Source of the DNA: Candidatus Iainarchaeum sp.
GTDB lineage: Archaea > Iainarchaeota > Iainarchaeia > Iainarchaeales > JAFCCW01
Length of the DNA: 64,000 bases
Direction of reading: 5' to 3'
Assembly (NCBI GenBank): GCA_017609985.1
Contig: JAFCCW010000001.1
Location: 32,001-96,000 of the forward strand
In this document: positions 57,708 to 63,501 of the stretch, one piece after another
How the letters are laid out: each line of letters opens with the position of its first letter
Position numbering within the stretch: the stretch's first letter is position 1
The notes under the pieces: generated by a model
Databases searched by the model: none
What the model saw: the letters and a program-made list of their open reading frames with translations, nothing else
What the model was told of the DNA's origin: nothing
Program-made: the position numbers and the translations under genes

Positions 57708-58043
57708 ATGAGTTTAAAGGAGTATGTCTCAAGGCTAAGCAGAGAGGATTTTATTTATGTCATGATTGAAACAGCAGAAGGAAAGACGGTTAATTTGACA
57801 GTGGTTTATTTCAGTGAATTTGATGGGTTTGCAGAGGAAATTTTTAGGGTTGACTGTGCGCACGGCTTTCTGCACAAGCATTTGCTCTTTAAGCCAAAGG
57901 AAAGAATTGAAATAATTGAAAGAGAACTAAGCGGAGAACTTGACAAAGAGCTTGTTGATGAAATAAAAGCGAACTGGAAAGAAATGAAGAAAAAATATTT
58001 CCTATTAAAGAAAAGAGGTGAATTAAGTGGACAAAAAAGTTAA
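57708..58043 (+). CDS. Putative toxin (TumE/DUF6516-like)
   Basis: RVDCAHG..HKH resembles the R.DN.H...H.H pattern; overlaps downstream HTH gene. Confidence 0.55.
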   Translation: MSLKEYVSRLSREDFIYVMIETAEGKTVNLTVVYFSEFDGFAEEIFRVDCAHGFLHKHLLFKPKERIEIIERELSGELDKELVDEIKANWKEMKKKYFLLKKRGELSGQKS

Positions 58044-58389
58044 GGATTTTGAAATCCGCATTGGAAGAGACTTTGGAAAAAAAATAGGCTACTTAATTGA
58101 CCACCCCAAAGAACTGGACAAAGAGCCGAGAAGAGTGCTTTACGTGGACGACCTAGAGATGCTTGCAGCCATAATCTCTAACAAAAAACTGCAGCTGATA
58201 AAATTCATTGGAAACAACAAAATCAGTTCAGTGAGCGAGCTGGCAAAGAAACTGAACCGGAAACAAGAGGCAGTCAGCAGAGACATCAGCAAGCTGGAGT
58301 CAGTAGGACTGCTCAAAAAAGAGAGAAAAGGAAAGAATATTGTGCCAAAGATTGCAGCAAAAAGCATTACTATTTCGCTGACTGGATAG
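58027..58389 (+). CDS. HTH DNA-binding protein, putative antitoxin
   Basis: SVSELAKKLNRKQEAVSRDISKLESVGL. Confidence 0.75.
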   Translation: MDKKVKDFEIRIGRDFGKKIGYLIDHPKELDKEPRRVLYVDDLEMLAAIISNKKLQLIKFIGNNKISSVSELAKKLNRKQEAVSRDISKLESVGLLKKERKGKNIVPKIAAKSITISLTG

Positions 58390-58548: not shown

Positions 58549-59496
58549 ATGGGAAAAGAAATAAAAGAAGTCAAAGACCTGCCAGGTGTTGGAACAACAG
58601 CAGCAGAAAAACTATTTAGTGCAGGATACAAAACACTTGAATCAATAGCAATAGCTTCCCCAATGGAGCTTATAGAAGTAGCTGGATTAGGAGATGGAAC
58701 ATCAGACAAAGCAATCAAGGCAGCAAGAGATGCTCTTGAAATGGGTTTTGAATCAGCAGACAAGCTTGCAGAGCGAAGAAAACAGGTTGGAAAGATCACA
58801 ACCGGAAGTGAAGCTCTTGATGAACTAATAGGCGGAGGAATAGAAACACAAAGTATTACCGAGGTATATGGAAAAATGGCAAGCGGTAAAACACAGTGGT
58901 GTTTTCAGGCAGCAGTGACTGCTCAGCTTCCAAAAGACAAGGGAGGGTTAGCAGGAAATGTACTGTACATTGACTCAGAAAATAGTTTCAGACCAGAAAG
59001 AGTATCCGCGATTGCAAAAGCACAGGGTCTTGACCCAGACAAGATTCTTAAAAATATTCTAGTTGCAAGAGCATACAATGCAGACCACCAAATTCTTCTG
59101 GCAGAAAAAGCAGTGGACATGATTAAGGAAAAAAACATAAAATTAGTAATAGTTGATTCTTTGACAAGCCAGTTCAGAGCAGAATATATTGGAAGAGGAA
59201 AGCTTGCTGACAGACAGCAAAAGCTAAACCAGCACATGAGAACACTAATGAAACTTGCTGAAATGCAAAACTGTGCATTGCTTGTGACCAACCAAGTAAT
59301 GGCCAGGCCAGACATCCTGTTTGGAGACCCGACAGCACCAGTAGGAGGGAATGTTGTAGGACATGCGTCCAAAACCAGGCTTTATTTGAGAAAAAGCAAG
59401 GACGAAAAAAGAATTGCAAAACTTGTTGATTCACCAAGCCTGCCGGACGGAGAAGCAGTTTACAGAGTTACAGAAAATGGAATAGAGGATATGTAA
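58549..59496 (+). CDS. radA: DNA repair and recombination protein RadA
   Basis: N-terminal HhH, GKMASGKTQ, IVDSL, RQQKL, TNQV; no intein. Confidence 0.97.
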   Translation: MGKEIKEVKDLPGVGTTAAEKLFSAGYKTLESIAIASPMELIEVAGLGDGTSDKAIKAARDALEMGFESADKLAERRKQVGKITTGSEALDELIGGGIETQSITEVYGKMASGKTQWCFQAAVTAQLPKDKGGLAGNVLYIDSENSFRPERVSAIAKAQGLDPDKILKNILVARAYNADHQILLAEKAVDMIKEKNIKLVIVDSLTSQFRAEYIGRGKLADRQQKLNQHMRTLMKLAEMQNCALLVTNQVMARPDILFGDPTAPVGGNVVGHASKTRLYLRKSKDEKRIAKLVDSPSLPDGEAVYRVTENGIEDM

Positions 59497-59507: not shown

Positions 59508-60236
59508 TTATATTCCTCTAACTCCAACTTCCCCAAAAAAAGCTTCTAGCGTTTCAGCAAAAGCAGTTAGCTGAGCAGGAGTAAAAGAATTTTTATTCTC
59601 AAGAGATCTGTCAATCATTCTTGAATCACTCTTGAATTGCTGAAGAAAAAAACGCTTTGGTTTTCCAGATAAAGAAAGAGAAGAAATCCATTTGCCAATA
59701 GAAACAAGTTTTTCCTCAGAAATAAATTCAGGGATAACAGTTGTGCGAAATTCATAGTCAGGAGCAGAATTTATTATAAGAGAAATAGACTGTTCAATCA
59801 GTTCAGAATCAACTTCAACTCCTGCAACAGCAGAGTAATCATTTTTTGGAGCTTTAACATCCATTGCCACATAGTCAGCAAGAGATTTTGAAAAAACTTT
59901 CTTCAAAACAGATGGATTGCCACCATTAGAATCAAGCTTGACTTCAAACCCAAGGTCTTTGACTCTTGAACAAAAATCCAAAAGCCCTGGCTGAAGAGTT
60001 GGTTCTCCGCCAGTGATTGCAACCCCCTGCAACCATTTCTTTTTAGACTCCAAAAAAGAAAAAAATTCTTCAACCGGAATCCTTGGTTCAGAAGGCTTGC
60101 CTAAAGCAAGTTCAGGATTGTAACAAAAAGGACAGCGAAAATTACAAGAATTAGTAAAAACAACACAGGAAAGTTTTCCTGGAAAATCAAGCATTGAGGT
60201 TCGGAGAACCCCGCGAATATCAAAATCAAGACTCAT
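59508..60236 (-). CDS. nrdG: Anaerobic RNR activating enzyme (radical SAM)
   Basis: CNFRCPFCYNP, TGGEPT, MDVK, EFRTT. Confidence 0.92.
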   Translation of the reverse strand: MSLDFDIRGVLRTSMLDFPGKLSCVVFTNSCNFRCPFCYNPELALGKPSEPRIPVEEFFSFLESKKKWLQGVAITGGEPTLQPGLLDFCSRVKDLGFEVKLDSNGGNPSVLKKVFSKSLADYVAMDVKAPKNDYSAVAGVEVDSELIEQSISLIINSAPDYEFRTTVIPEFISEEKLVSIGKWISSLSLSGKPKRFFLQQFKSDSRMIDRSLENKNSFTPAQLTAFAETLEAFFGEVGVRGI

Positions 60237-60244
60237 AAAAAAAC

Positions 60245-60508
60245 CTAGTGAAGAGCCTTTTCCACCTCTTCTTTTGGAGGAACTTCAGATTTCCAGGAAA
60301 CAAGCTCAGTACCAGAATCATCCACTACAACAAGAGAAGGAGTGCCCATAATTCCATACATTGCTGCTTCTGCAAGACCCTCTGGATCGCCAATATTTAG
60401 ATAGCTAACTGAAACACCACTCTGTTCAAACTCTTTGCCAAGTTCCTTTGCAGATGGACATTTTCCACAGCCTTCTTTCCAAAAAACAAGCAACTTTATA
60501 CACAACAC
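60245..60508 (-). CDS. Small thioredoxin/glutaredoxin-like protein
   Basis: CGKC active site, cis-Pro motif GTPS. Confidence 0.85.
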   Translation of the reverse strand: MLCIKLLVFWKEGCGKCPSAKELGKEFEQSGVSVSYLNIGDPEGLAEAAMYGIMGTPSLVVVDDSGTELVSWKSEVPPKEEVEKALH

Positions 60509-60513
60509 CTTCT

Positions 60514-60663
60514 TTAGATTTTGTAGTTTCCAGCTTGACGGTCAACAAACTCTGCTTTTTTTCCAGAATTCCAGTTTTGTATTTTGCTATAATATCCAAC
60601 AACTCTTGTTATTCCTTCGACATTTTCACTTCCACAGTGAACACATTTTGCTTTTAATTCCAT
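60514..60663 (-). CDS. Stand-alone NrdD glycyl-radical domain (49 aa), not in ORF track
   Basis: MELKAKCVHCGSENVEGITRVVGYYSKIQNWNSGKKAEFVDRQAGNYKI; RVVGY motif; SD GGAGGTG; TGATG overlap with nrdD. Confidence 0.92.
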   Translation of the reverse strand: MELKAKCVHCGSENVEGITRVVGYYSKIQNWNSGKKAEFVDRQAGNYKI

Positions 60664-63122
60664 CAACACACCTCCGCGACGGACTTTTTTGATTTATTAG
60701 ATTTATCTAATTTTCCAGAATTTTCTTTTTTAATTGAAACCTCTTTTTCAGTTGAACTCTCCTCTTCAGCACCCTGCACAGCAGAGCGAACAAAACCACG
60801 AGAAATCTTGTCACAATCCTTACAAATAGTAAATTCAGGAGAAATAACTATCTGCGCACTAGGAGTATTGTCCCATGTTCTCTTAACAAGCTCAAAAATT
60901 GCTGCTGGATCCGGCTTTTGTTCTCCAAGAAAAACATGAGTTATTGCGCCAGATTCAATGAGTGTATTGAACTTCGCTTGTTTATCAATTCTTTCGATTA
61001 TATCAACCTCTGAATTAGGAGAAAAATGAACCGAGTTTGTATAATACACATTCTCAGAAGCAACATCGCCCTGAACATAGTCTTTAACAAAATCAAAACG
61101 TCTTAAATCAACTTTAGCCATTCGAGAAGACGCACTCTCAGCAGGAGTTTCCTCGAGAGTAAACTTTAGCTTGTGTTCTTTTTCAAGAGCCTTTACCTTG
61201 AGATACATTGCAGAGATTATCTTGAGACCCTCTTTGTAAGCATCTTCAGACTCATGAAGTTCTTTGTCAGTCAAATACTTAACACACTCATTCAATCCAA
61301 TTATCCCAATAATATAAGTTGCCTTGTCAGTATCAACATATTTTCTGCCATCTTCAGCAACTTTTCCAATCTGCCAGAGAGGCATGTGAGGAGCAGACAT
61401 AAGCTGGTCAATAAATTTCTTCTTTTGGAGATGTGCCTTTACAGCTAAATCCATCATGGCTTCAACAGTTTTAATTGTTTTACCAGTGTTCTTGGATGAC
61501 TTGAAAGCAGCCTGAGGCAAATTAATGCTTACATTCTGAAAACCACAAAAGCGCATGCTCTCAGGATGCAACACCATATAATTGTCAGTAATTTCAGTGC
61601 GAAGTCTGCAACACATTGAAAGATTTACCTCATCGCGATCAAAAATAAAATAAGGAGAACCATTCTCAGAAGCAATTACACAAGCTTCGCTCAAAAGCTC
61701 GCGCTGTTTTGGATCATCAAAAGAATCCTGATTAACATGAAGATCAAATTTTGGAAATGGAAAAGGAAGATTGTTTCTGTCACCCTCTCTCCAAACCTCC
61801 ATCAAAGCCCTGCAAAATTGCTGAGCCTCTGCTTCAAAATCAAGATAAGTTAAAATCTTTCCATCAGCAGACTGCTCAAGCTCGCCGTTCTTGTTTCTGG
61901 GAACCTCATCAAGTTTCTCAATCGATCCGTCCTTCTTTTCAAGCATATATTTTCCGCCAGGACCGATGGCAGGAACATTCTTGAGATAAGAAGGGATTCC
62001 GGTGTGAATATTAAAATCAATAAAGAGTGTCTGGCCACCTCTAGAAAATGCATTCTGAGAACAAGAAAAAATCAAATACTGTGCTTCCTGCTTCATTCGC
62101 TCAAAAGACATTCCGCGCATTAGCGGCGCATAAAAAAGATTAACATAACTTATTCCAAGAGCCCCGGCATAGTAAGCCTGCATGGAAGCAAGAAAAGTGT
62201 TAAGATGGCCAGTGAGAGTCTGAGCATGCTTTGCGGGCGCAGAAACAGTTGAAAGATTCTCAAGCTTGAGACCATATTTTTTGATATACTCCAAAGAATG
62301 CGCAGAACAATAAGTTCTTATTGGATAACCCAAGTCATGAAGGTGAATTGCACCCTCAAGATGAGCCTTAGAAATATCTTTAGAAAAAAGATTATTCAAC
62401 GCAAACTGTTTCAGGATATTTTCCGCAATCGAAAGATTAACTGCTTCAGGATTGTTAGCAGCAACATTTGAATTCTCATTACTCATAGAACTTATGAGTT
62501 GTTTCAAATCATACACCGGCATTCCAATAAGAGTCTGCTTCTCAAGTTTTGACTGATAACCACGATCAAATAATTCAGTGTCAACCAAAGCACGAATAAG
62601 AGAAGTTGAAATCTTCTTCAAACCAGATTTAAAAATTCGCTCCTCAACAGCATCAGCTATTTCCTCTGCCTCAGCAAGAGGAATGCTTGCCTCTTTATGG
62701 AGCGCAGAAGCAATCTTGGATTTACTCCACTCAAATAATTCATCCTTGGAAGAGGGCTCCACCAACAAAAGCAAGTCAGTAGAAGAAGCCTTGCCCCTTA
62801 CCTTTTTCCTTACTTGAATCTTAGAACGCATTCTCTTGCGCTCGTCCCTGTAAAGAATAAATGCTTTTGCAGTCTTTGCCCTGCCATCTTCAATAAGAAT
62901 TTTTTCAACAGAATCCTGAACCTCCTCTATGGTTGGGCTCTTGCCGCCAAAACTCCGCCTTAAATCATTAGTAACTTTTCTGGCAATATTTCTTGCAGAA
63001 CCATAATCCTTGCCACCGACAGACTTAGCAGCCTTAAAAATTGCATTTGCAATTTTCTCCTCATTAAAAGGAACAAACCGCCCGTCTCTTTTTTGAACAT
63101 TAGTGAAAAATTCTTCAACCAT
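60663..63122 (-). CDS. nrdD: Class III ribonucleotide reductase large subunit with two ATP cones, lacking the glycyl-radical domain
   Basis: VQKRDG ATP cone, IHLHDL, SMCCRL finger loop, TPAES, YYTNS; ends after a single CxxC. Confidence 0.95.
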   Translation of the reverse strand: MVEEFFTNVQKRDGRFVPFNEEKIANAIFKAAKSVGGKDYGSARNIARKVTNDLRRSFGGKSPTIEEVQDSVEKILIEDGRAKTAKAFILYRDERKRMRSKIQVRKKVRGKASSTDLLLLVEPSSKDELFEWSKSKIASALHKEASIPLAEAEEIADAVEERIFKSGLKKISTSLIRALVDTELFDRGYQSKLEKQTLIGMPVYDLKQLISSMSNENSNVAANNPEAVNLSIAENILKQFALNNLFSKDISKAHLEGAIHLHDLGYPIRTYCSAHSLEYIKKYGLKLENLSTVSAPAKHAQTLTGHLNTFLASMQAYYAGALGISYVNLFYAPLMRGMSFERMKQEAQYLIFSCSQNAFSRGGQTLFIDFNIHTGIPSYLKNVPAIGPGGKYMLEKKDGSIEKLDEVPRNKNGELEQSADGKILTYLDFEAEAQQFCRALMEVWREGDRNNLPFPFPKFDLHVNQDSFDDPKQRELLSEACVIASENGSPYFIFDRDEVNLSMCCRLRTEITDNYMVLHPESMRFCGFQNVSINLPQAAFKSSKNTGKTIKTVEAMMDLAVKAHLQKKKFIDQLMSAPHMPLWQIGKVAEDGRKYVDTDKATYIIGIIGLNECVKYLTDKELHESEDAYKEGLKIISAMYLKVKALEKEHKLKFTLEETPAESASSRMAKVDLRRFDFVKDYVQGDVASENVYYTNSVHFSPNSEVDIIERIDKQAKFNTLIESGAITHVFLGEQKPDPAAIFELVKRTWDNTPSAQIVISPEFTICKDCDKISRGFVRSAVQGAEEESSTEKEVSIKKENSGKLDKSNKSKKSVAEVC

Positions 63123-63501
63123 AAAACACACCTGTTTTTTTCAAGCATAATAGAGATAGCTTTTTTGTTTATAAAAGATTACTAAGAAAAGACAACAGTT
63201 AGGAAAAAGCAGTAAACCAAGGTTAAAAGTTCGGAAAGCTAAGGGATATTGCTTGTTTGCGCATTGAGAGTTTGTTTTTTTTCCTAAAAAAACCAGTTTC
63301 CCAAGAAAATACTAAAAAACAGCAGTAAAAAACAACAAAAAGCAAATAAAAAACAAATGAAAAACAAAACAAAAATAGAATAAATGCAAATTAAGCAGGG
63401 TTAGATGAAAAGAGAAACTAGAATTGAAAACCAAAAGCCAGAGGACAGAGGCTAAAAACTAAACTCTGAAAACTGAAAACAGAAATTAATAAAACAAAAA
63501 A

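What the first reader, a model, noticed from the sequence alone, without database searches (positions are those of the whole stretch)
60514..63122. Split class III ribonucleotide reductase: the glycyl radical domain is a separate 49-aa protein
Seen: NrdD ends ...EFTICKDCDK plus a ~40-residue low-complexity tail, with only one CxxC and no RxxGY motif. An ORF below the track's length cutoff (60663-60514) encodes CVHC...TRVVGYYSKIQNWNSGKKAEFVDR, the missing C-terminal domain. It has its own GGAGGTG SD and a TGATG stop/start overlap, which argues for a true gene split rather than a sequencing frameshift. Established: class III RNRs carry the radical Gly and a four-Cys Zn site at the NrdD C-terminus, and pyruvate formate-lyase has an autonomous spare part (GrcA/YfiD). 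Inference: a two-chain RNR clasped by an inter-subunit Zn (2+2 Cys), in which the O2-cleavable radical chain can be replaced without rebuilding the ~820-aa core. Short NrdD-C-terminal ORFs do occur in genome annotations, so novelty must be checked.
Basis: partly seen in the sequence, partly recalled or inferred. Interest (0 to 1): 0.88.

Follow-up and report, generated by a model that had tools for sequence, protein, structure and literature searches.

The report
Two-gene anaerobic ribonucleotide reductase, separate radical peptide
In this small archaeal genome the oxygen-sensitive enzyme that makes DNA building blocks is encoded in two pieces, a large catalytic core and a separate 49-residue peptide that carries the radical-bearing glycine, and the same split is the rule in its relatives, so it is a real and apparently undescribed enzyme architecture rather than a sequencing error.

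Summary
On the minus strand, nrdD (60663-63122/63131) ends after its first CxxC plus a 49-residue K/S/E-rich tail. A 49-aa ORF (60514-60663) supplies the second CxxC and the RVVGY glycyl-radical loop. It has a GGAGGTG ribosome-binding site and a TGATG overlap. A thioredoxin-like gene and nrdG follow.

The split is not an artefact. In 196 genomes of the same order, 116 glycyl-radical-domain (GRD) matches sort as 90 split-adjacent, 14 fused and 12 without a core nearby. Frames, overlaps and stop codons all vary. 89 of 90 small ORFs start with ATG, and 76 of 90 have a 5-nt or longer SD match, against 3.6% at control ATGs.

Bacterial orthologues (49-59% identity) are fused. Named archaeal ones (Aenigmatarchaeota, Asgard) are split at the same loop.

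A complex model supports binding (ipSAE 0.91, best control 0.00) and places the two Cys pairs together. That pass may partly reflect likeness to solved fused NrdDs.

No other RNR was found in the 86.6%-complete genome.

In six related genomes, extra orphan GRD genes sit in Fur-rubrerythrin operons. This indirectly supports a spare-part role.

Seven literature searches found no split class III RNR. I rate it a new variant of a known kind.

The parts
60663..63122 (-). nrdD core gene (819 aa from ATG 63122; an upstream GTG at 63131 gives 822 aa; stop TGA 60663-60665). It lacks the glycyl radical domain.
   Evidence: PF13597 382.9 bits on profile 1-517/562; TIGR02487 354.3 bits (cut-off 326.35) on profile 1-534/581. 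A public record calls it from the ATG (P0155, 819 aa).
62832..63101 (-). First N-terminal ATP-cone (residues 11-100). Pfam reports a second stretch downstream of it.
   Evidence: PF03477 101.9 bits, 2 stretches, best stretch residues 11-100.
60804..62477 (-). NRDD catalytic barrel domain (residues 219-776).
61605..61616 (-). Finger-loop motif MCCR (M506 C507 C508 R509), the double-cysteine type, expected site of the thiyl radical.
   Evidence: translation. C507, C508 and R509 are invariant in 65 aligned cores. Motif classes come from PMC9669993 section 2.5. Residues 508-509 lie in the predicted interface with the small chain.
60813..60824 (-). First zinc knuckle CKDC (C770, C773), the only CxxC of the core chain.
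   Evidence: C770 and C773 are invariant in 65 cores.
60666..60812 (-). 49-residue tail after the knuckle. ISRGFxR is conserved. The rest is K/S/E-rich, variable in length, and ends in codons that spell the SD.
   Evidence: the closest relative has a 19-residue tail against 49 here, while its core is 84% identical; tails of 16-56 residues (counted from the F of EFTxCxxC) in split-type homologues.
60669..60675 (-). Shine-Dalgarno-like GGAGGTG, 5 nt before the small ORF's ATG, inside the last codons of the core gene.
   Evidence: In relatives, 76 of 90 small ORFs have a 5-nt or longer match, against 3.6% of 3122 control ATGs.
60514..60663 (-). Small ORF, 49 aa plus stop: the glycyl radical domain as a separate chain. 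Its ATG overlaps the core gene's TGA (TGATG) in the -1 frame.
   Evidence: PF13597 profile 521-560/562, E 2.9e-12; TIGR02487 profile 540-579/581. Near-identical 49-aa ORFs occur in other assemblies.
60634..60645 (-). Second zinc knuckle CVHC (C7, C10) on the small chain.
   Evidence: C7 and C10 are invariant in 77 aligned small proteins. C770 of the core touches C7 in the model.
60592..60606 (-). RVVGY loop. G23 (60595-60597) is the expected radical glycine.
   Evidence: R20 is invariant and G23 is present in at least 90% of 77 small proteins.
60684..60690 (-). In-phase A_AAA_AAG heptamer, 25 nt before the core stop, just after the -1 frame opens. It could allow a minor -1 slip into the small ORF's frame.
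   Evidence: The feature is not conserved: 5 of 32 relatives with the small ORF in the -1 frame have such a heptamer.
60245..60508 (-). Thioredoxin-like protein (87 aa, CGKC), candidate reductant.
   Evidence: PF13192 28.4 bits (cut-off 24.8); below NCBIfam cut-offs. The same gene order occurs in G020.
59508..60236 (-). nrdG, radical-SAM activase (242 aa).
   Evidence: TIGR02495 NrdG2 206.4 bits (cut-off 131.15). PF04055.

Best explanation
This is a functional class III ribonucleotide reductase encoded as two chains in one operon: nrdD-core, the 49-aa GRD gene, a thioredoxin-like gene and nrdG.

Shown:
- The gene is split in the loop between the two halves of the C-terminal zinc ribbon.
- The small ORF has its own SD and ATG.
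- The split is conserved across the order and in other archaeal phyla, while bacterial orthologues are fused.

Inferred:
- The small gene is translated by coupling to the end of the core gene.
- The peptide docks into the barrel by pairing its strand (residues 14-20) with core strand 764-773.
- C7 and C10 complete a four-Cys metal site with C770 and C773.
- NrdG with SAM puts the radical on G23.
- The radical passes to the MCCR finger loop (C507/C508) to start NTP reduction.
- The neighbouring thioredoxin-like protein, or formate, supplies electrons.

Because the radical-bearing, oxygen-cleavable part is a detachable 49-residue chain, it can in principle be exchanged. I rate that exchange as plausible but unproven for this organism.
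For: - The two ORFs tile one NrdD profile.
- In 196 genomes of the order, 117 matched places were fetched and 116 hold a GRD. Of these, 90 are split-adjacent, 14 fused and 12 without a core nearby, of which 4 are cut by contig ends. Split pairs occur in 34 genera of 14 families.
- Junctions differ. The small ORF is in frame +1 in 40, +2 in 32 and 0 in 18. The start lies from 43 nt inside the core gene to 339 nt after its stop. Core stops are TAA 41, TGA 40 and TAG 9. The start is ATG in 89 of 90. An SD match of 5 nt or more occurs in 76 of 90, against 3.6% of 3122 control ATGs.
- Of the 120 best homologues of core residues 500-822, 83 end 75 residues or fewer after the first knuckle without a GRD, 8 more lack a GRD but carry another extension, and 29 are fused.
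- Of the 150 best representatives for the small protein, 91 are 100 aa or shorter.
- Among 24 named genome loci, 17 are fused, all bacterial by title (Atribacterota and kin, Clostridia, Ratteibacteria, Omnitrophota and one record titled only 'bacterium'). Two are split, both archaeal (Aenigmatarchaeota, Promethearchaeati). Five are cut short.
- The closest relative has a core 84% identical, a small chain identical at 44 of 49 residues, and a tail of 19 against 49 residues.
- The complex model gives ipSAE 0.91, 0.91 and 0.89, best of 3 controls 0.00, at least 73% of contacts shared between runs, and partner pLDDT of at least 84. The tool states that its mark was reached by 58 of 80 solved complexes and 2 of 110 mismatched pairs. 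C770 touches C7, and residues 508-509 lie in the interface.
- A related contig covers 60536-60757 with 12 substitutions and no gap.
- No class I/II RNR domain (PF02867) was found, and there is no other NRDD in the 86.6%-complete genome.
- nrdG is adjacent.
Against: - No RNA, protein or activity data exist. No RNA run holds the stretch.
- The complex pass may come from memory of solved fused NrdDs, and my own alignments and a riding Zn ion were outside the tool's calibration.
- The genome is incomplete, so another RNR could be unassembled. Small-genome archaea may also scavenge deoxynucleotides, so 'only RNR' is not proof of function.
- An in-phase A_AAA_AAG heptamer (60684-60690) would allow some fused product by a -1 slip.
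- Fused forms nested among split ones show that the fused state works equally well, so the split may confer no benefit.
Confidence: 0.85

Rival explanations
1. The selected function is exchange. The GRD mini-protein is a replaceable radical cartridge, a class III RNR counterpart of GrcA/YfiD. After oxygen cleaves it at the glycine, a fresh copy replaces it and the roughly 820-aa core is kept.
For: - Six related genomes carry an extra GRD gene with no core nearby, directly behind a Fur-family regulator and rubrerythrin, together with peroxiredoxin, desulfoferrodoxin, MsrB or a CDGSH protein.
- One of them (G079) has a fused NrdD, as PFL coexists with GrcA. Three have a split pair as well.
- Orphan GRDs also lie in phage-like replication modules and in ANMV-1 virus.
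- Oxygen cleaves glycyl radical enzymes at the glycine (passages in PMC12288474, and PMC13450708).
Against: - The window's genome has one GRD copy only, inside the nrdD operon and translationally coupled. That gives 1:1 synthesis, not surplus spare parts.
- Half of the metal site is on the core, so a free peptide may not fold or be activated alone.
- The split and fused states changed at least 9 times on the tree, which fits near-neutral drift.
- No expression data exist.
Confidence: 0.35
2. It is a neutral gene fission. The two chains form an obligate, non-exchanging heterodimer identical in function to fused NrdD, fixed by drift in small-genome archaea.
For: - There are repeated switches between split and fused on the core tree: at least 9 changes, 7-8 of them forced by well-supported branches.
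- Fused forms nested in split clades keep 21-33-residue spacers, three of which (P0258, P0203, P0197) read like a former SD plus ATG ('GGE.M' or 'GGGIM').
- Tail length and sequence are unconstrained.
- Translational coupling is seen.
Against: - The split state dominates two NrdD clades that are only 25-29% identical, and it falls at the same structural loop in both.
- Unlinked orphan copies in stress operons are hard to explain by drift alone.
Confidence: 0.45
3. In this genome a programmed -1 ribosomal frameshift at A_AAA_AAG (60684-60690) makes a fused NrdD, and the small ORF is not translated on its own.
For: - The heptamer is in phase, 25 nt before the stop, exactly where the -1 frame opens.
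- The one variant contig changes it to A_AAA_AAA, which is still slippery (place 60684).
Against: - Only 5 of 32 relatives with the small ORF in the -1 frame have such a heptamer.
- 58 of 90 relatives have the small ORF in another frame.
- In 10 of those 32 the small ORF's open frame begins only after the core stop, so there is no overlap in which a slip could act.
- The background density of such heptamers is 1.2% per codon, and higher in a Lys-rich tail.
- The small ORF has a 7-nt SD and an ATG.
Confidence: 0.06
4. It is an assembly or sequencing error, or a decaying pseudogene.
For: A single-base indel would fuse the frames, and MAG assemblies do contain such errors.
Against: - 90 independent loci have different junction geometries.
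- Near-identical 49-aa ORFs occur in other assemblies.
- The variant contig shows no indel.
- Catalytic residues are invariant in both chains.
- It is the only RNR found in the genome.
Confidence: 0.02

Closest known systems
Canonical single-chain class III RNR NrdD (phage T4 1h78; Thermotoga maritima 4coi/4u3e; Prevotella copri 8p23)
   Same: It has the same barrel domain, an ATP-cone, a finger loop of the MCCR type, a four-ligand C-terminal metal site, an RVxGY glycine loop and an adjacent NrdG activase.
   Different: The chain is cut between the two zinc knuckles. The last 45 or so residues, including the radical glycine, are a separate gene product with its own SD and ATG. A variable tail is appended to the core.
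GrcA/YfiD of E. coli and its phage T4 counterpart, spare-part proteins for pyruvate formate-lyase
   Same: It is a small stand-alone protein homologous to the GRD of a glycyl radical enzyme. The orphan copies in relatives sit in oxidative-stress operons and in viruses.
   Different: GrcA belongs to the PFL family and coexists with a PFL that keeps its own GRD. Here the core has no GRD at all, so the peptide is an obligatory subunit. The 2026 review PMC13450708 says that formate lyases are the only GRE class with known spare parts (passage). The T4 homologue is recalled, not seen in a call.
Split class II RNR NrdJa/NrdJb (Pseudomonas aeruginosa and other gamma-proteobacteria)
   Same: The RNR catalytic chain is encoded by two adjacent genes, with the C-terminal zinc-finger-bearing part on the second chain (passages in PMC9669993 and PMC3267527).
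   Different: That enzyme is class II, B12-dependent, with no glycyl radical. Its second chain is a large multi-domain protein, not a roughly 50-residue peptide. PMC9669993 treats splitting as distinct to class II.
Class I RNR alpha/beta
   Same: The radical is stored on a separate subunit from the catalytic barrel.
   Different: The class I radical subunit is a ferritin-like protein with a metal-oxygen cofactor and long-range radical transfer. Here the carrier is a fragment of the same fold, inserted into the barrel. This is an analogy only.

Membership tests
Class III RNR, NrdD (PF13597 / TIGR02487) | NRDD barrel domain scoring above the curated cut-off | tested here: met
   PF13597 382.9 bits (cut-off 26.2). 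TIGR02487 354.3 bits (cut-off 326.35).
Class III RNR, NrdD (PF13597 / TIGR02487) | Finger-loop cysteine motif (MGCR or MCCR) | tested here: met
   MCCR at residues 506-509. C507 and C508 are invariant in 65 cores. Motif definition from PMC9669993.
Class III RNR, NrdD (PF13597 / TIGR02487) | C-terminal glycyl radical domain (RVxGY) on the same polypeptide as the barrel | tested here: not met
   The core chain has no RxxGY and stops at profile position 517 of 562. The motif is on the separate 49-aa ORF (profile 521-560).
Class III RNR, NrdD (PF13597 / TIGR02487) | Four-ligand metal site next to the glycine loop | tested here: inconclusive
   Two Cys are on the core (C770, C773) and two on the peptide (C7, C10), all invariant. 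The model puts C770 against C7. Metal binding was not measured.
Class III RNR, NrdD (PF13597 / TIGR02487) | Cognate radical-SAM activase NrdG | tested here: met
   TIGR02495 206.4 bits (cut-off 131.15), two genes downstream.
Class III RNR, NrdD (PF13597 / TIGR02487) | Glycyl radical formation and NTP reduction | not testable with these tools
   This needs anaerobic reconstitution, EPR and a dNTP assay.
GrcA/YfiD-type spare-part protein | Small autonomous protein homologous to the GRD of a glycyl radical enzyme | tested here: met
   49 aa, PF13597 positions 521-560.
GrcA/YfiD-type spare-part protein | Member of the PFL-type glycine radical family | tested here: not met
   The only Pfam match at E up to 0.1 is NRDD.
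GrcA/YfiD-type spare-part protein | Coexists with a full-length enzyme that has its own GRD | tested here: not met
   The window's genome has one core without a GRD and one GRD. The feature is met in relative G079, which has a fused NrdD plus an orphan GRD.
GrcA/YfiD-type spare-part protein | Restores activity of the oxygen-cleaved enzyme; stress-induced | not testable with these tools
   Only gene context is available. The window's copy is in the nrdD operon, while relatives' orphans are in Fur-rubrerythrin operons.
Split RNRs (NrdJa/NrdJb type) | Catalytic chain encoded by two adjacent, separately translated genes | tested here: met
Split RNRs (NrdJa/NrdJb type) | Class II, adenosylcobalamin-dependent barrel | tested here: not met
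   The barrel matches NRDD. PF02867 is not found in the genome.

The most novel reading that the evidence does not exclude
NrdD-type GRD mini-proteins are a family of exchangeable radical cartridges for class III RNR, and they come in three forms. The first is a resident copy coupled to a GRD-less core, as in this window. The second is a stress-operon copy behind Fur and rubrerythrin that re-arms oxygen-damaged enzyme. The third is a virus-borne copy that keeps host dNTP synthesis running. Under this reading the split would be an adaptation of oxygen-exposed anaerobic archaea, and the first case of a glycyl radical enzyme whose radical site is always supplied in trans.
Probability: 0.3. Interest if true: 0.88.

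Novelty: new variant of a known kind. Interest (0 to 1): 0.77.

Why it matters
Glycyl radical enzymes are taught as single chains whose C-terminal domain must swing out of the barrel to meet the activase and swing back to work. A natural enzyme in which that domain is a free 49-residue peptide offers several things:

- a ready-made system to study docking, activation and radical transfer separately;
- a test of whether anaerobes limit the cost of oxygen damage by replacing only the cleaved part;
- an extension of the spare-part idea from pyruvate formate-lyase to ribonucleotide reduction, the step on which DNA synthesis depends.

It also has practical consequences. Surveys that drop proteins under 400 residues (PMC9531940) miss the radical subunit. 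Annotation pipelines name the core a complete NrdD. Metabolic reconstructions of DPANN and Asgard archaea should count both genes.

Tried and rejected
- Sequencing-error reading: rejected on conservation and on a gap-free variant contig.
- Split intein or protein splicing that joins the chains: rejected by eye. The tail (49 aa, low complexity) and the 6 residues before CVHC leave no room for intein halves. An ordinary intein does occur elsewhere in the G020 orthologue.
- Stop-codon recoding: rejected. All three stop codons occur at the junction, and only 18 of 90 small ORFs are in frame.
- General -1 frameshifting: rejected.
- RNA evidence: no RNA holder is listed for the stretch, so nothing can be said on expression.
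- Reads: only one DNA run held 21% of the sampled words, as contigs. It may be the source sample or a near strain, so it is weak support. The X3 pieces were short matches under 90% likeness and were ignored.
- A paper reading 'find' call failed on a too-short term and was not repeated.
- Fur and rubrerythrin BLAST queries found no such neighbours beside the six metagenomic orphans that had 2.8 kb or more upstream. Three of those sit in phage-like modules instead. Two (L180, L193) remain unplaced, and L211 had no clear neighbours.
- The phage-collection search found mostly fused phage NrdDs.
- The tree is FastTree only, with one long-branch warning (P0214), so the number of state changes is approximate.
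- Supplements of papers were not opened. RNR family tables there might list short NrdD fragments.
Full report
**What is in the window**

The minus strand carries four tightly packed genes.
- The first is a large ORF, 60663..63131 (GTG) or ..63122 (ATG, as a public record calls it).
- The second is a 49-aa ORF, 60514..60663.
- The third is an 87-aa thioredoxin-like ORF, 60245..60508.
- The fourth is a 242-aa ORF, 59508..60236.

Pfam and NCBIfam identify the large one as NrdD. PF13597 scores 382.9 bits. TIGR02487 scores 354.3 bits against a cut-off of 326.35. Two ATP-cone stretches are reported. The last ORF is the activase NrdG (TIGR02495, 206.4 bits, cut-off 131.15).

The NrdD match stops at profile position 517 of 562. 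The 49-aa ORF matches positions 521-560 (E 2.9e-12).

The core has one CxxC (CKDC, residues 770-773) and no RxxGY. After the knuckle comes a 49-residue tail rich in K, S and E. The small ORF reads MELKAK-CVHC-GSENVEGIT-RVVGY-.... GGAGGTG lies 5 nt before its ATG, and the ATG overlaps the core's TGA.

A neighbouring gene is archaeal RadA, and the genome is 1.16 Mb in 37 contigs. So this is a small-genome archaeon.

**Is it an artefact?**

No. I searched the 49-aa protein against all 196 genomes held for the same order. 108 genomes gave a match. I fetched all 117 matched places and classified them with one script.
- 116 hold a glycine-loop motif. One weak hit, in G006, does not.
- 90 are small ORFs directly behind a GRD-less NrdD core.
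- 14 are fused.
- 12 have no core nearby. Of these, 4 are cut by a contig end and are followed by nrdG.

By genome, of 107:
- 82 have a split pair only.
- 11 have a fused gene only.
- 4 are unknown because of contig ends.
- 3 have a split pair plus an orphan in a Fur-rubrerythrin operon.
- 2 have a fused gene plus a split pair.
- 2 have only a Fur-rubrerythrin orphan.
- 1 has a fused gene plus such an orphan.
- 1 has a split pair plus two other orphans.
- 1 has two split pairs.

Split pairs occur in 34 genera of 14 families.

The junctions are not copies of one another.
- The small ORF is in frame +1 in 40, +2 in 32 and 0 in 18.
- Its start lies between 43 nt inside the core gene and 339 nt after its stop.
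- The core stop is TAA in 41, TGA in 40 and TAG in 9.
- 89 of 90 small ORFs start with ATG.
- 76 of 90 have a match of 5 nt or more to the SD string within 18 nt upstream, against 3.6% of 3122 ATGs inside the core genes. The SD string itself is recalled, not taken from a call.
- Small ORFs are 37-77 aa long, median 49.

The codons that end many core tails (...EV.) are simply the SD read in frame.

Outside the order:
- A word-indexed search found two further proteins of 48-49 aa at 81-82% identity.
- The window's own 90% cluster holds three more 49-mers from other assemblies, identical at 44-46 of 49 residues.
- For the closest relative the core is 84% identical over 770 aligned residues. Its tail is 19 residues against 49 here. 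The small chain most likely belonging to it (P0277, on a contig of the same length, 10069 bases) is identical at 44 of 49 residues. So the peptide is constrained and the tail is not.
- The only sequencing run that held part of the stretch gave a 224-nt contig across 60536-60757, with 12 substitutions and no gap. This is weak evidence, because it may be the source or a near strain.

**How wide is the split?**

A full scan of 1.84 billion representatives gave 516 hits at E of 1e-3 or better. Of the 150 best, 91 are 100 aa or shorter, 13 are 101-130, 24 are 131-400 and 22 are over 400. Of the 93 short proteins (those 91 plus P0003 and P0004), 84 begin with M. A few short ones (P0044, P0048) look like fragments of fused genes.

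Of the 120 best homologues of core residues 500-822 (58-82% identity; 7359 passed E 1e-3 among 7999 scored candidates):
- 83 end 75 residues or fewer after the first knuckle with no GRD.
- 8 lack a GRD but carry an 85-residue or so four-Cys extension.
- 29 are fused.

Source names on GRD-less ones include Woesearchaeota, Aenigmarchaeota, Iainarchaeum, Micrarchaeota, Heimdallarchaeota and Asgard group.

In one genome per species, 24 loci encode relatives at 49-59% identity.
- 17 are fused, and all are bacterial by title (Atribacterota and kin, Clostridia, Ratteibacteria, Omnitrophota and one record titled only 'bacterium').
- 2 are split, and both are archaeal (an Aenigmatarchaeota and a Promethearchaeati MAG).
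- 5 are cut short.

The fused bacterial form has exactly 10 residues between the knuckles (...CNTC-SEVSRGLQEN-CNGC...). The split falls in that loop.

The order holds a second NrdD clade, only 25-29% identical to the window's. Its fused form reads ...ICPVHGY..HYTCP...KCGKRTEVYSRVVGYY. It is split at the equivalent place, leaving one Cys on the peptide. 87 of the 90 small ORFs are of this kind, and 3, including the window's, have CxxC.

**Fission and fusion**

I built a FastTree of 129 cores with the C-terminal columns removed. Two split-type rows with cores under 550 aa were dropped. The tree needs at least 9 changes between GRD-bearing and GRD-less states. 7-8 of them are forced by well-supported branches. 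Label shuffles average 33-40 changes.

It is a quick tree with one long-branch warning and no root, so direction cannot be read from it.

The five fused proteins nested among split ones (P0258, P0232, P0169, P0203, P0197) have spacers of 21-33 residues. Three of these spacers (P0258, P0203, P0197) contain '...DGGE.M...' or '...DGGGIM...'. That is what an SD (GGAGG) followed by ATG reads like in frame, and the same 'GGE' occurs in split tails. I read these as re-fusions of formerly split genes. That is an inference. Misassembled fusions cannot be excluded.

**Does the peptide bind?**

I folded core residues 205-822 with the 49-mer and one Zn. The core used an alignment of the window's core with 64 of the 91 GRD-less homologues. 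The 49-mer used an alignment of the window's peptide with 76 of the 93 short proteins.
- The score was 0.91, 0.91 and 0.89, against 0.00 for the best of three controls.
- At least 73% of contacts were shared between runs.
- Partner pLDDT was at least 84.
- The tool states that its mark was reached by 58 of 80 solved complexes and 2 of 110 mismatched pairs. It also states that these counts hold only roughly here.

The lowest-error contacts pair core 764-773 (SPEFTICKDC) with peptide 14-20, and C770 with C7. Residues 508-509 of the MCCR finger loop are in the interface.

This is what a fused NrdD looks like, and solved fused structures exist (8p23, 9d3x, 4coi, 4u3e, 1h78). So the pass shows likeness, not proof that this pair binds.

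**Function**

The finger loop is MCCR. According to PMC9669993 (section 2.5, read whole) this is the double-cysteine class, which keeps the components for both formate and thioredoxin reduction. The thioredoxin-like gene between the peptide gene and nrdG, also present in G020, fits thiol reduction.

No class I/II RNR domain and no second NRDD were found in the 86.6%-complete genome. As far as is assembled, the split enzyme is the only de novo route to dNTPs.

**Rival: frameshifting**

An in-phase A_AAA_AAG lies at 60684-60690, just after the -1 frame opens, so a -1 slip would yield a fused chain. It is not a family feature.
- 5 of 32 relatives with the small ORF in the -1 frame have such a heptamer.
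- 58 of 90 have another frame.
- Background density is 1.2% per codon.

I give it 6% as the main route in this genome.

**The spare-part idea**

The window has one GRD copy, coupled to the core, so nothing here shows replacement. Relatives add a lead.

Six genomes in three genera of two families carry an extra GRD mini-gene with no core within the fetched flanks. The six loci are L043, L051, L087, L093, L095 and L096. In each, the gene sits directly downstream of a Fur-family regulator and a rubrerythrin. Peroxiredoxin, desulfoferrodoxin, MsrB or a CDGSH protein lie beside them. Pfam confirmed 10 of 10 neighbours tested. Four of the six read RVCGY.

One of these genomes has a fused NrdD, the GrcA-like situation, and three have a split pair.

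A profile of these orphans pulled 80 metagenome loci. They sorted as 46 fused, 14 split-adjacent, 17 without an adjacent core and 4 with the match in an open frame over 200 aa and no core match. Many of the 17 are cut by contig ends. Six of the 17 had 2.8 kb or more upstream. None of these showed Fur or rubrerythrin with my queries. Three of them lie in phage-like replication modules:
- L248, with exonuclease, ParB-like protein, Sak4 and SSB;
- L197, with a primase-polymerase;
- L186, with a helicase.

ANMV-1 virus has a 144-aa CDS ending in a GRD with no core beside it.

**Literature**

Seven full-text searches and passages in ten papers found no split class III RNR.
- PMC9669993 calls splitting distinct to class II (passage).
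- PMC13450708 (June 2026 review) says that formate lyases are the only GRE class with known spare parts (passage).
- PMC9531940 removed sequences under 400 residues (passage).

The library lacks most subscription journals, and I did not open supplements. The claim is therefore 'not found', not 'never described'. Databases already hold the small ORFs under generic names.

**Verdict**

This is a real, conserved, two-gene class III RNR with the radical glycine on a 49-residue chain. It is a new variant of a known kind. The exchange or cartridge reading is open and testable.

Noticed in passing
L087 3471-3617(-), L093 3498-3644(+), L095 3228-3371(-), L096 3642-3788(-), L043 572-721(-), L051 619-813(-): Orphan GRD mini-genes with no NrdD core nearby lie directly behind a Fur-family regulator and rubrerythrin, with peroxiredoxin, desulfoferrodoxin, MsrB or a CDGSH protein alongside. 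They occur in six genomes of the window's order. Four of the six read RVCGY, with a Cys next to the radical Gly.
   Followed up: partly
L248 2891-3016, L197 3001-3111, L186 3001-3135; L255 2686-3120 (ANMV-1 virus KP703175.1): Stand-alone NrdD-type GRD genes lie inside phage-like replication modules in metagenome contigs. An archaeal virus has a 144-aa CDS named anaerobic RNR that ends in a GRD with no core beside it.
   Followed up: partly
P0258, P0232, P0169, P0203, P0197: Fused NrdDs nested among split ones have 21-33-residue spacers between the zinc knuckles. Three of them (P0258, P0203, P0197) contain '..DGGE.M..' or '..DGGGIM..', which reads like a former SD plus ATG. This looks like a fossil of re-fusion.
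   Followed up: partly
window 60684-60690 (-): An in-phase A_AAA_AAG heptamer lies 25 nt before the core stop, exactly where the -1 frame opens. The one variant contig has A_AAA_AAA there.
   Followed up: yes
L002 1-2799 (G020): The closest orthologue in the order carries an intein-like insertion after ...SRGGQS in the barrel. Several database homologues carry Pfam PF14528 and PF14890. That gene is also split at the C-terminus.
   Followed up: no
P0231, P0238, P0242, P0243, P0250, P0264, P0265, P0266: One clade of GRD-less cores ends in an extra four-Cys extension of about 85 residues (..WYxCPxCGFE....C..GC..) after the first knuckle. Whether a small GRD gene follows is unknown, because no DNA was held.
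   Followed up: no
A2 consensus; PF22811: Many homologous cores start with an NrdR-like zinc ribbon before the ATP-cone. The window's protein lacks it.
   Followed up: no
L089 849-1004, L091 2230-2352 (G108): Two further orphan GRD ORFs in one genome lie beside an ArsR-like gene and a 290-aa membrane protein, not in a Fur-rubrerythrin context. One has no start codon in its open frame.
   Followed up: no
window 58549-59496(+), 58027-58389(+): Archaeal RadA (TIGR02236, 468 bits) and an ArsR/SmtB-type HTH protein lie just beside the operon on the other strand.
   Followed up: yes
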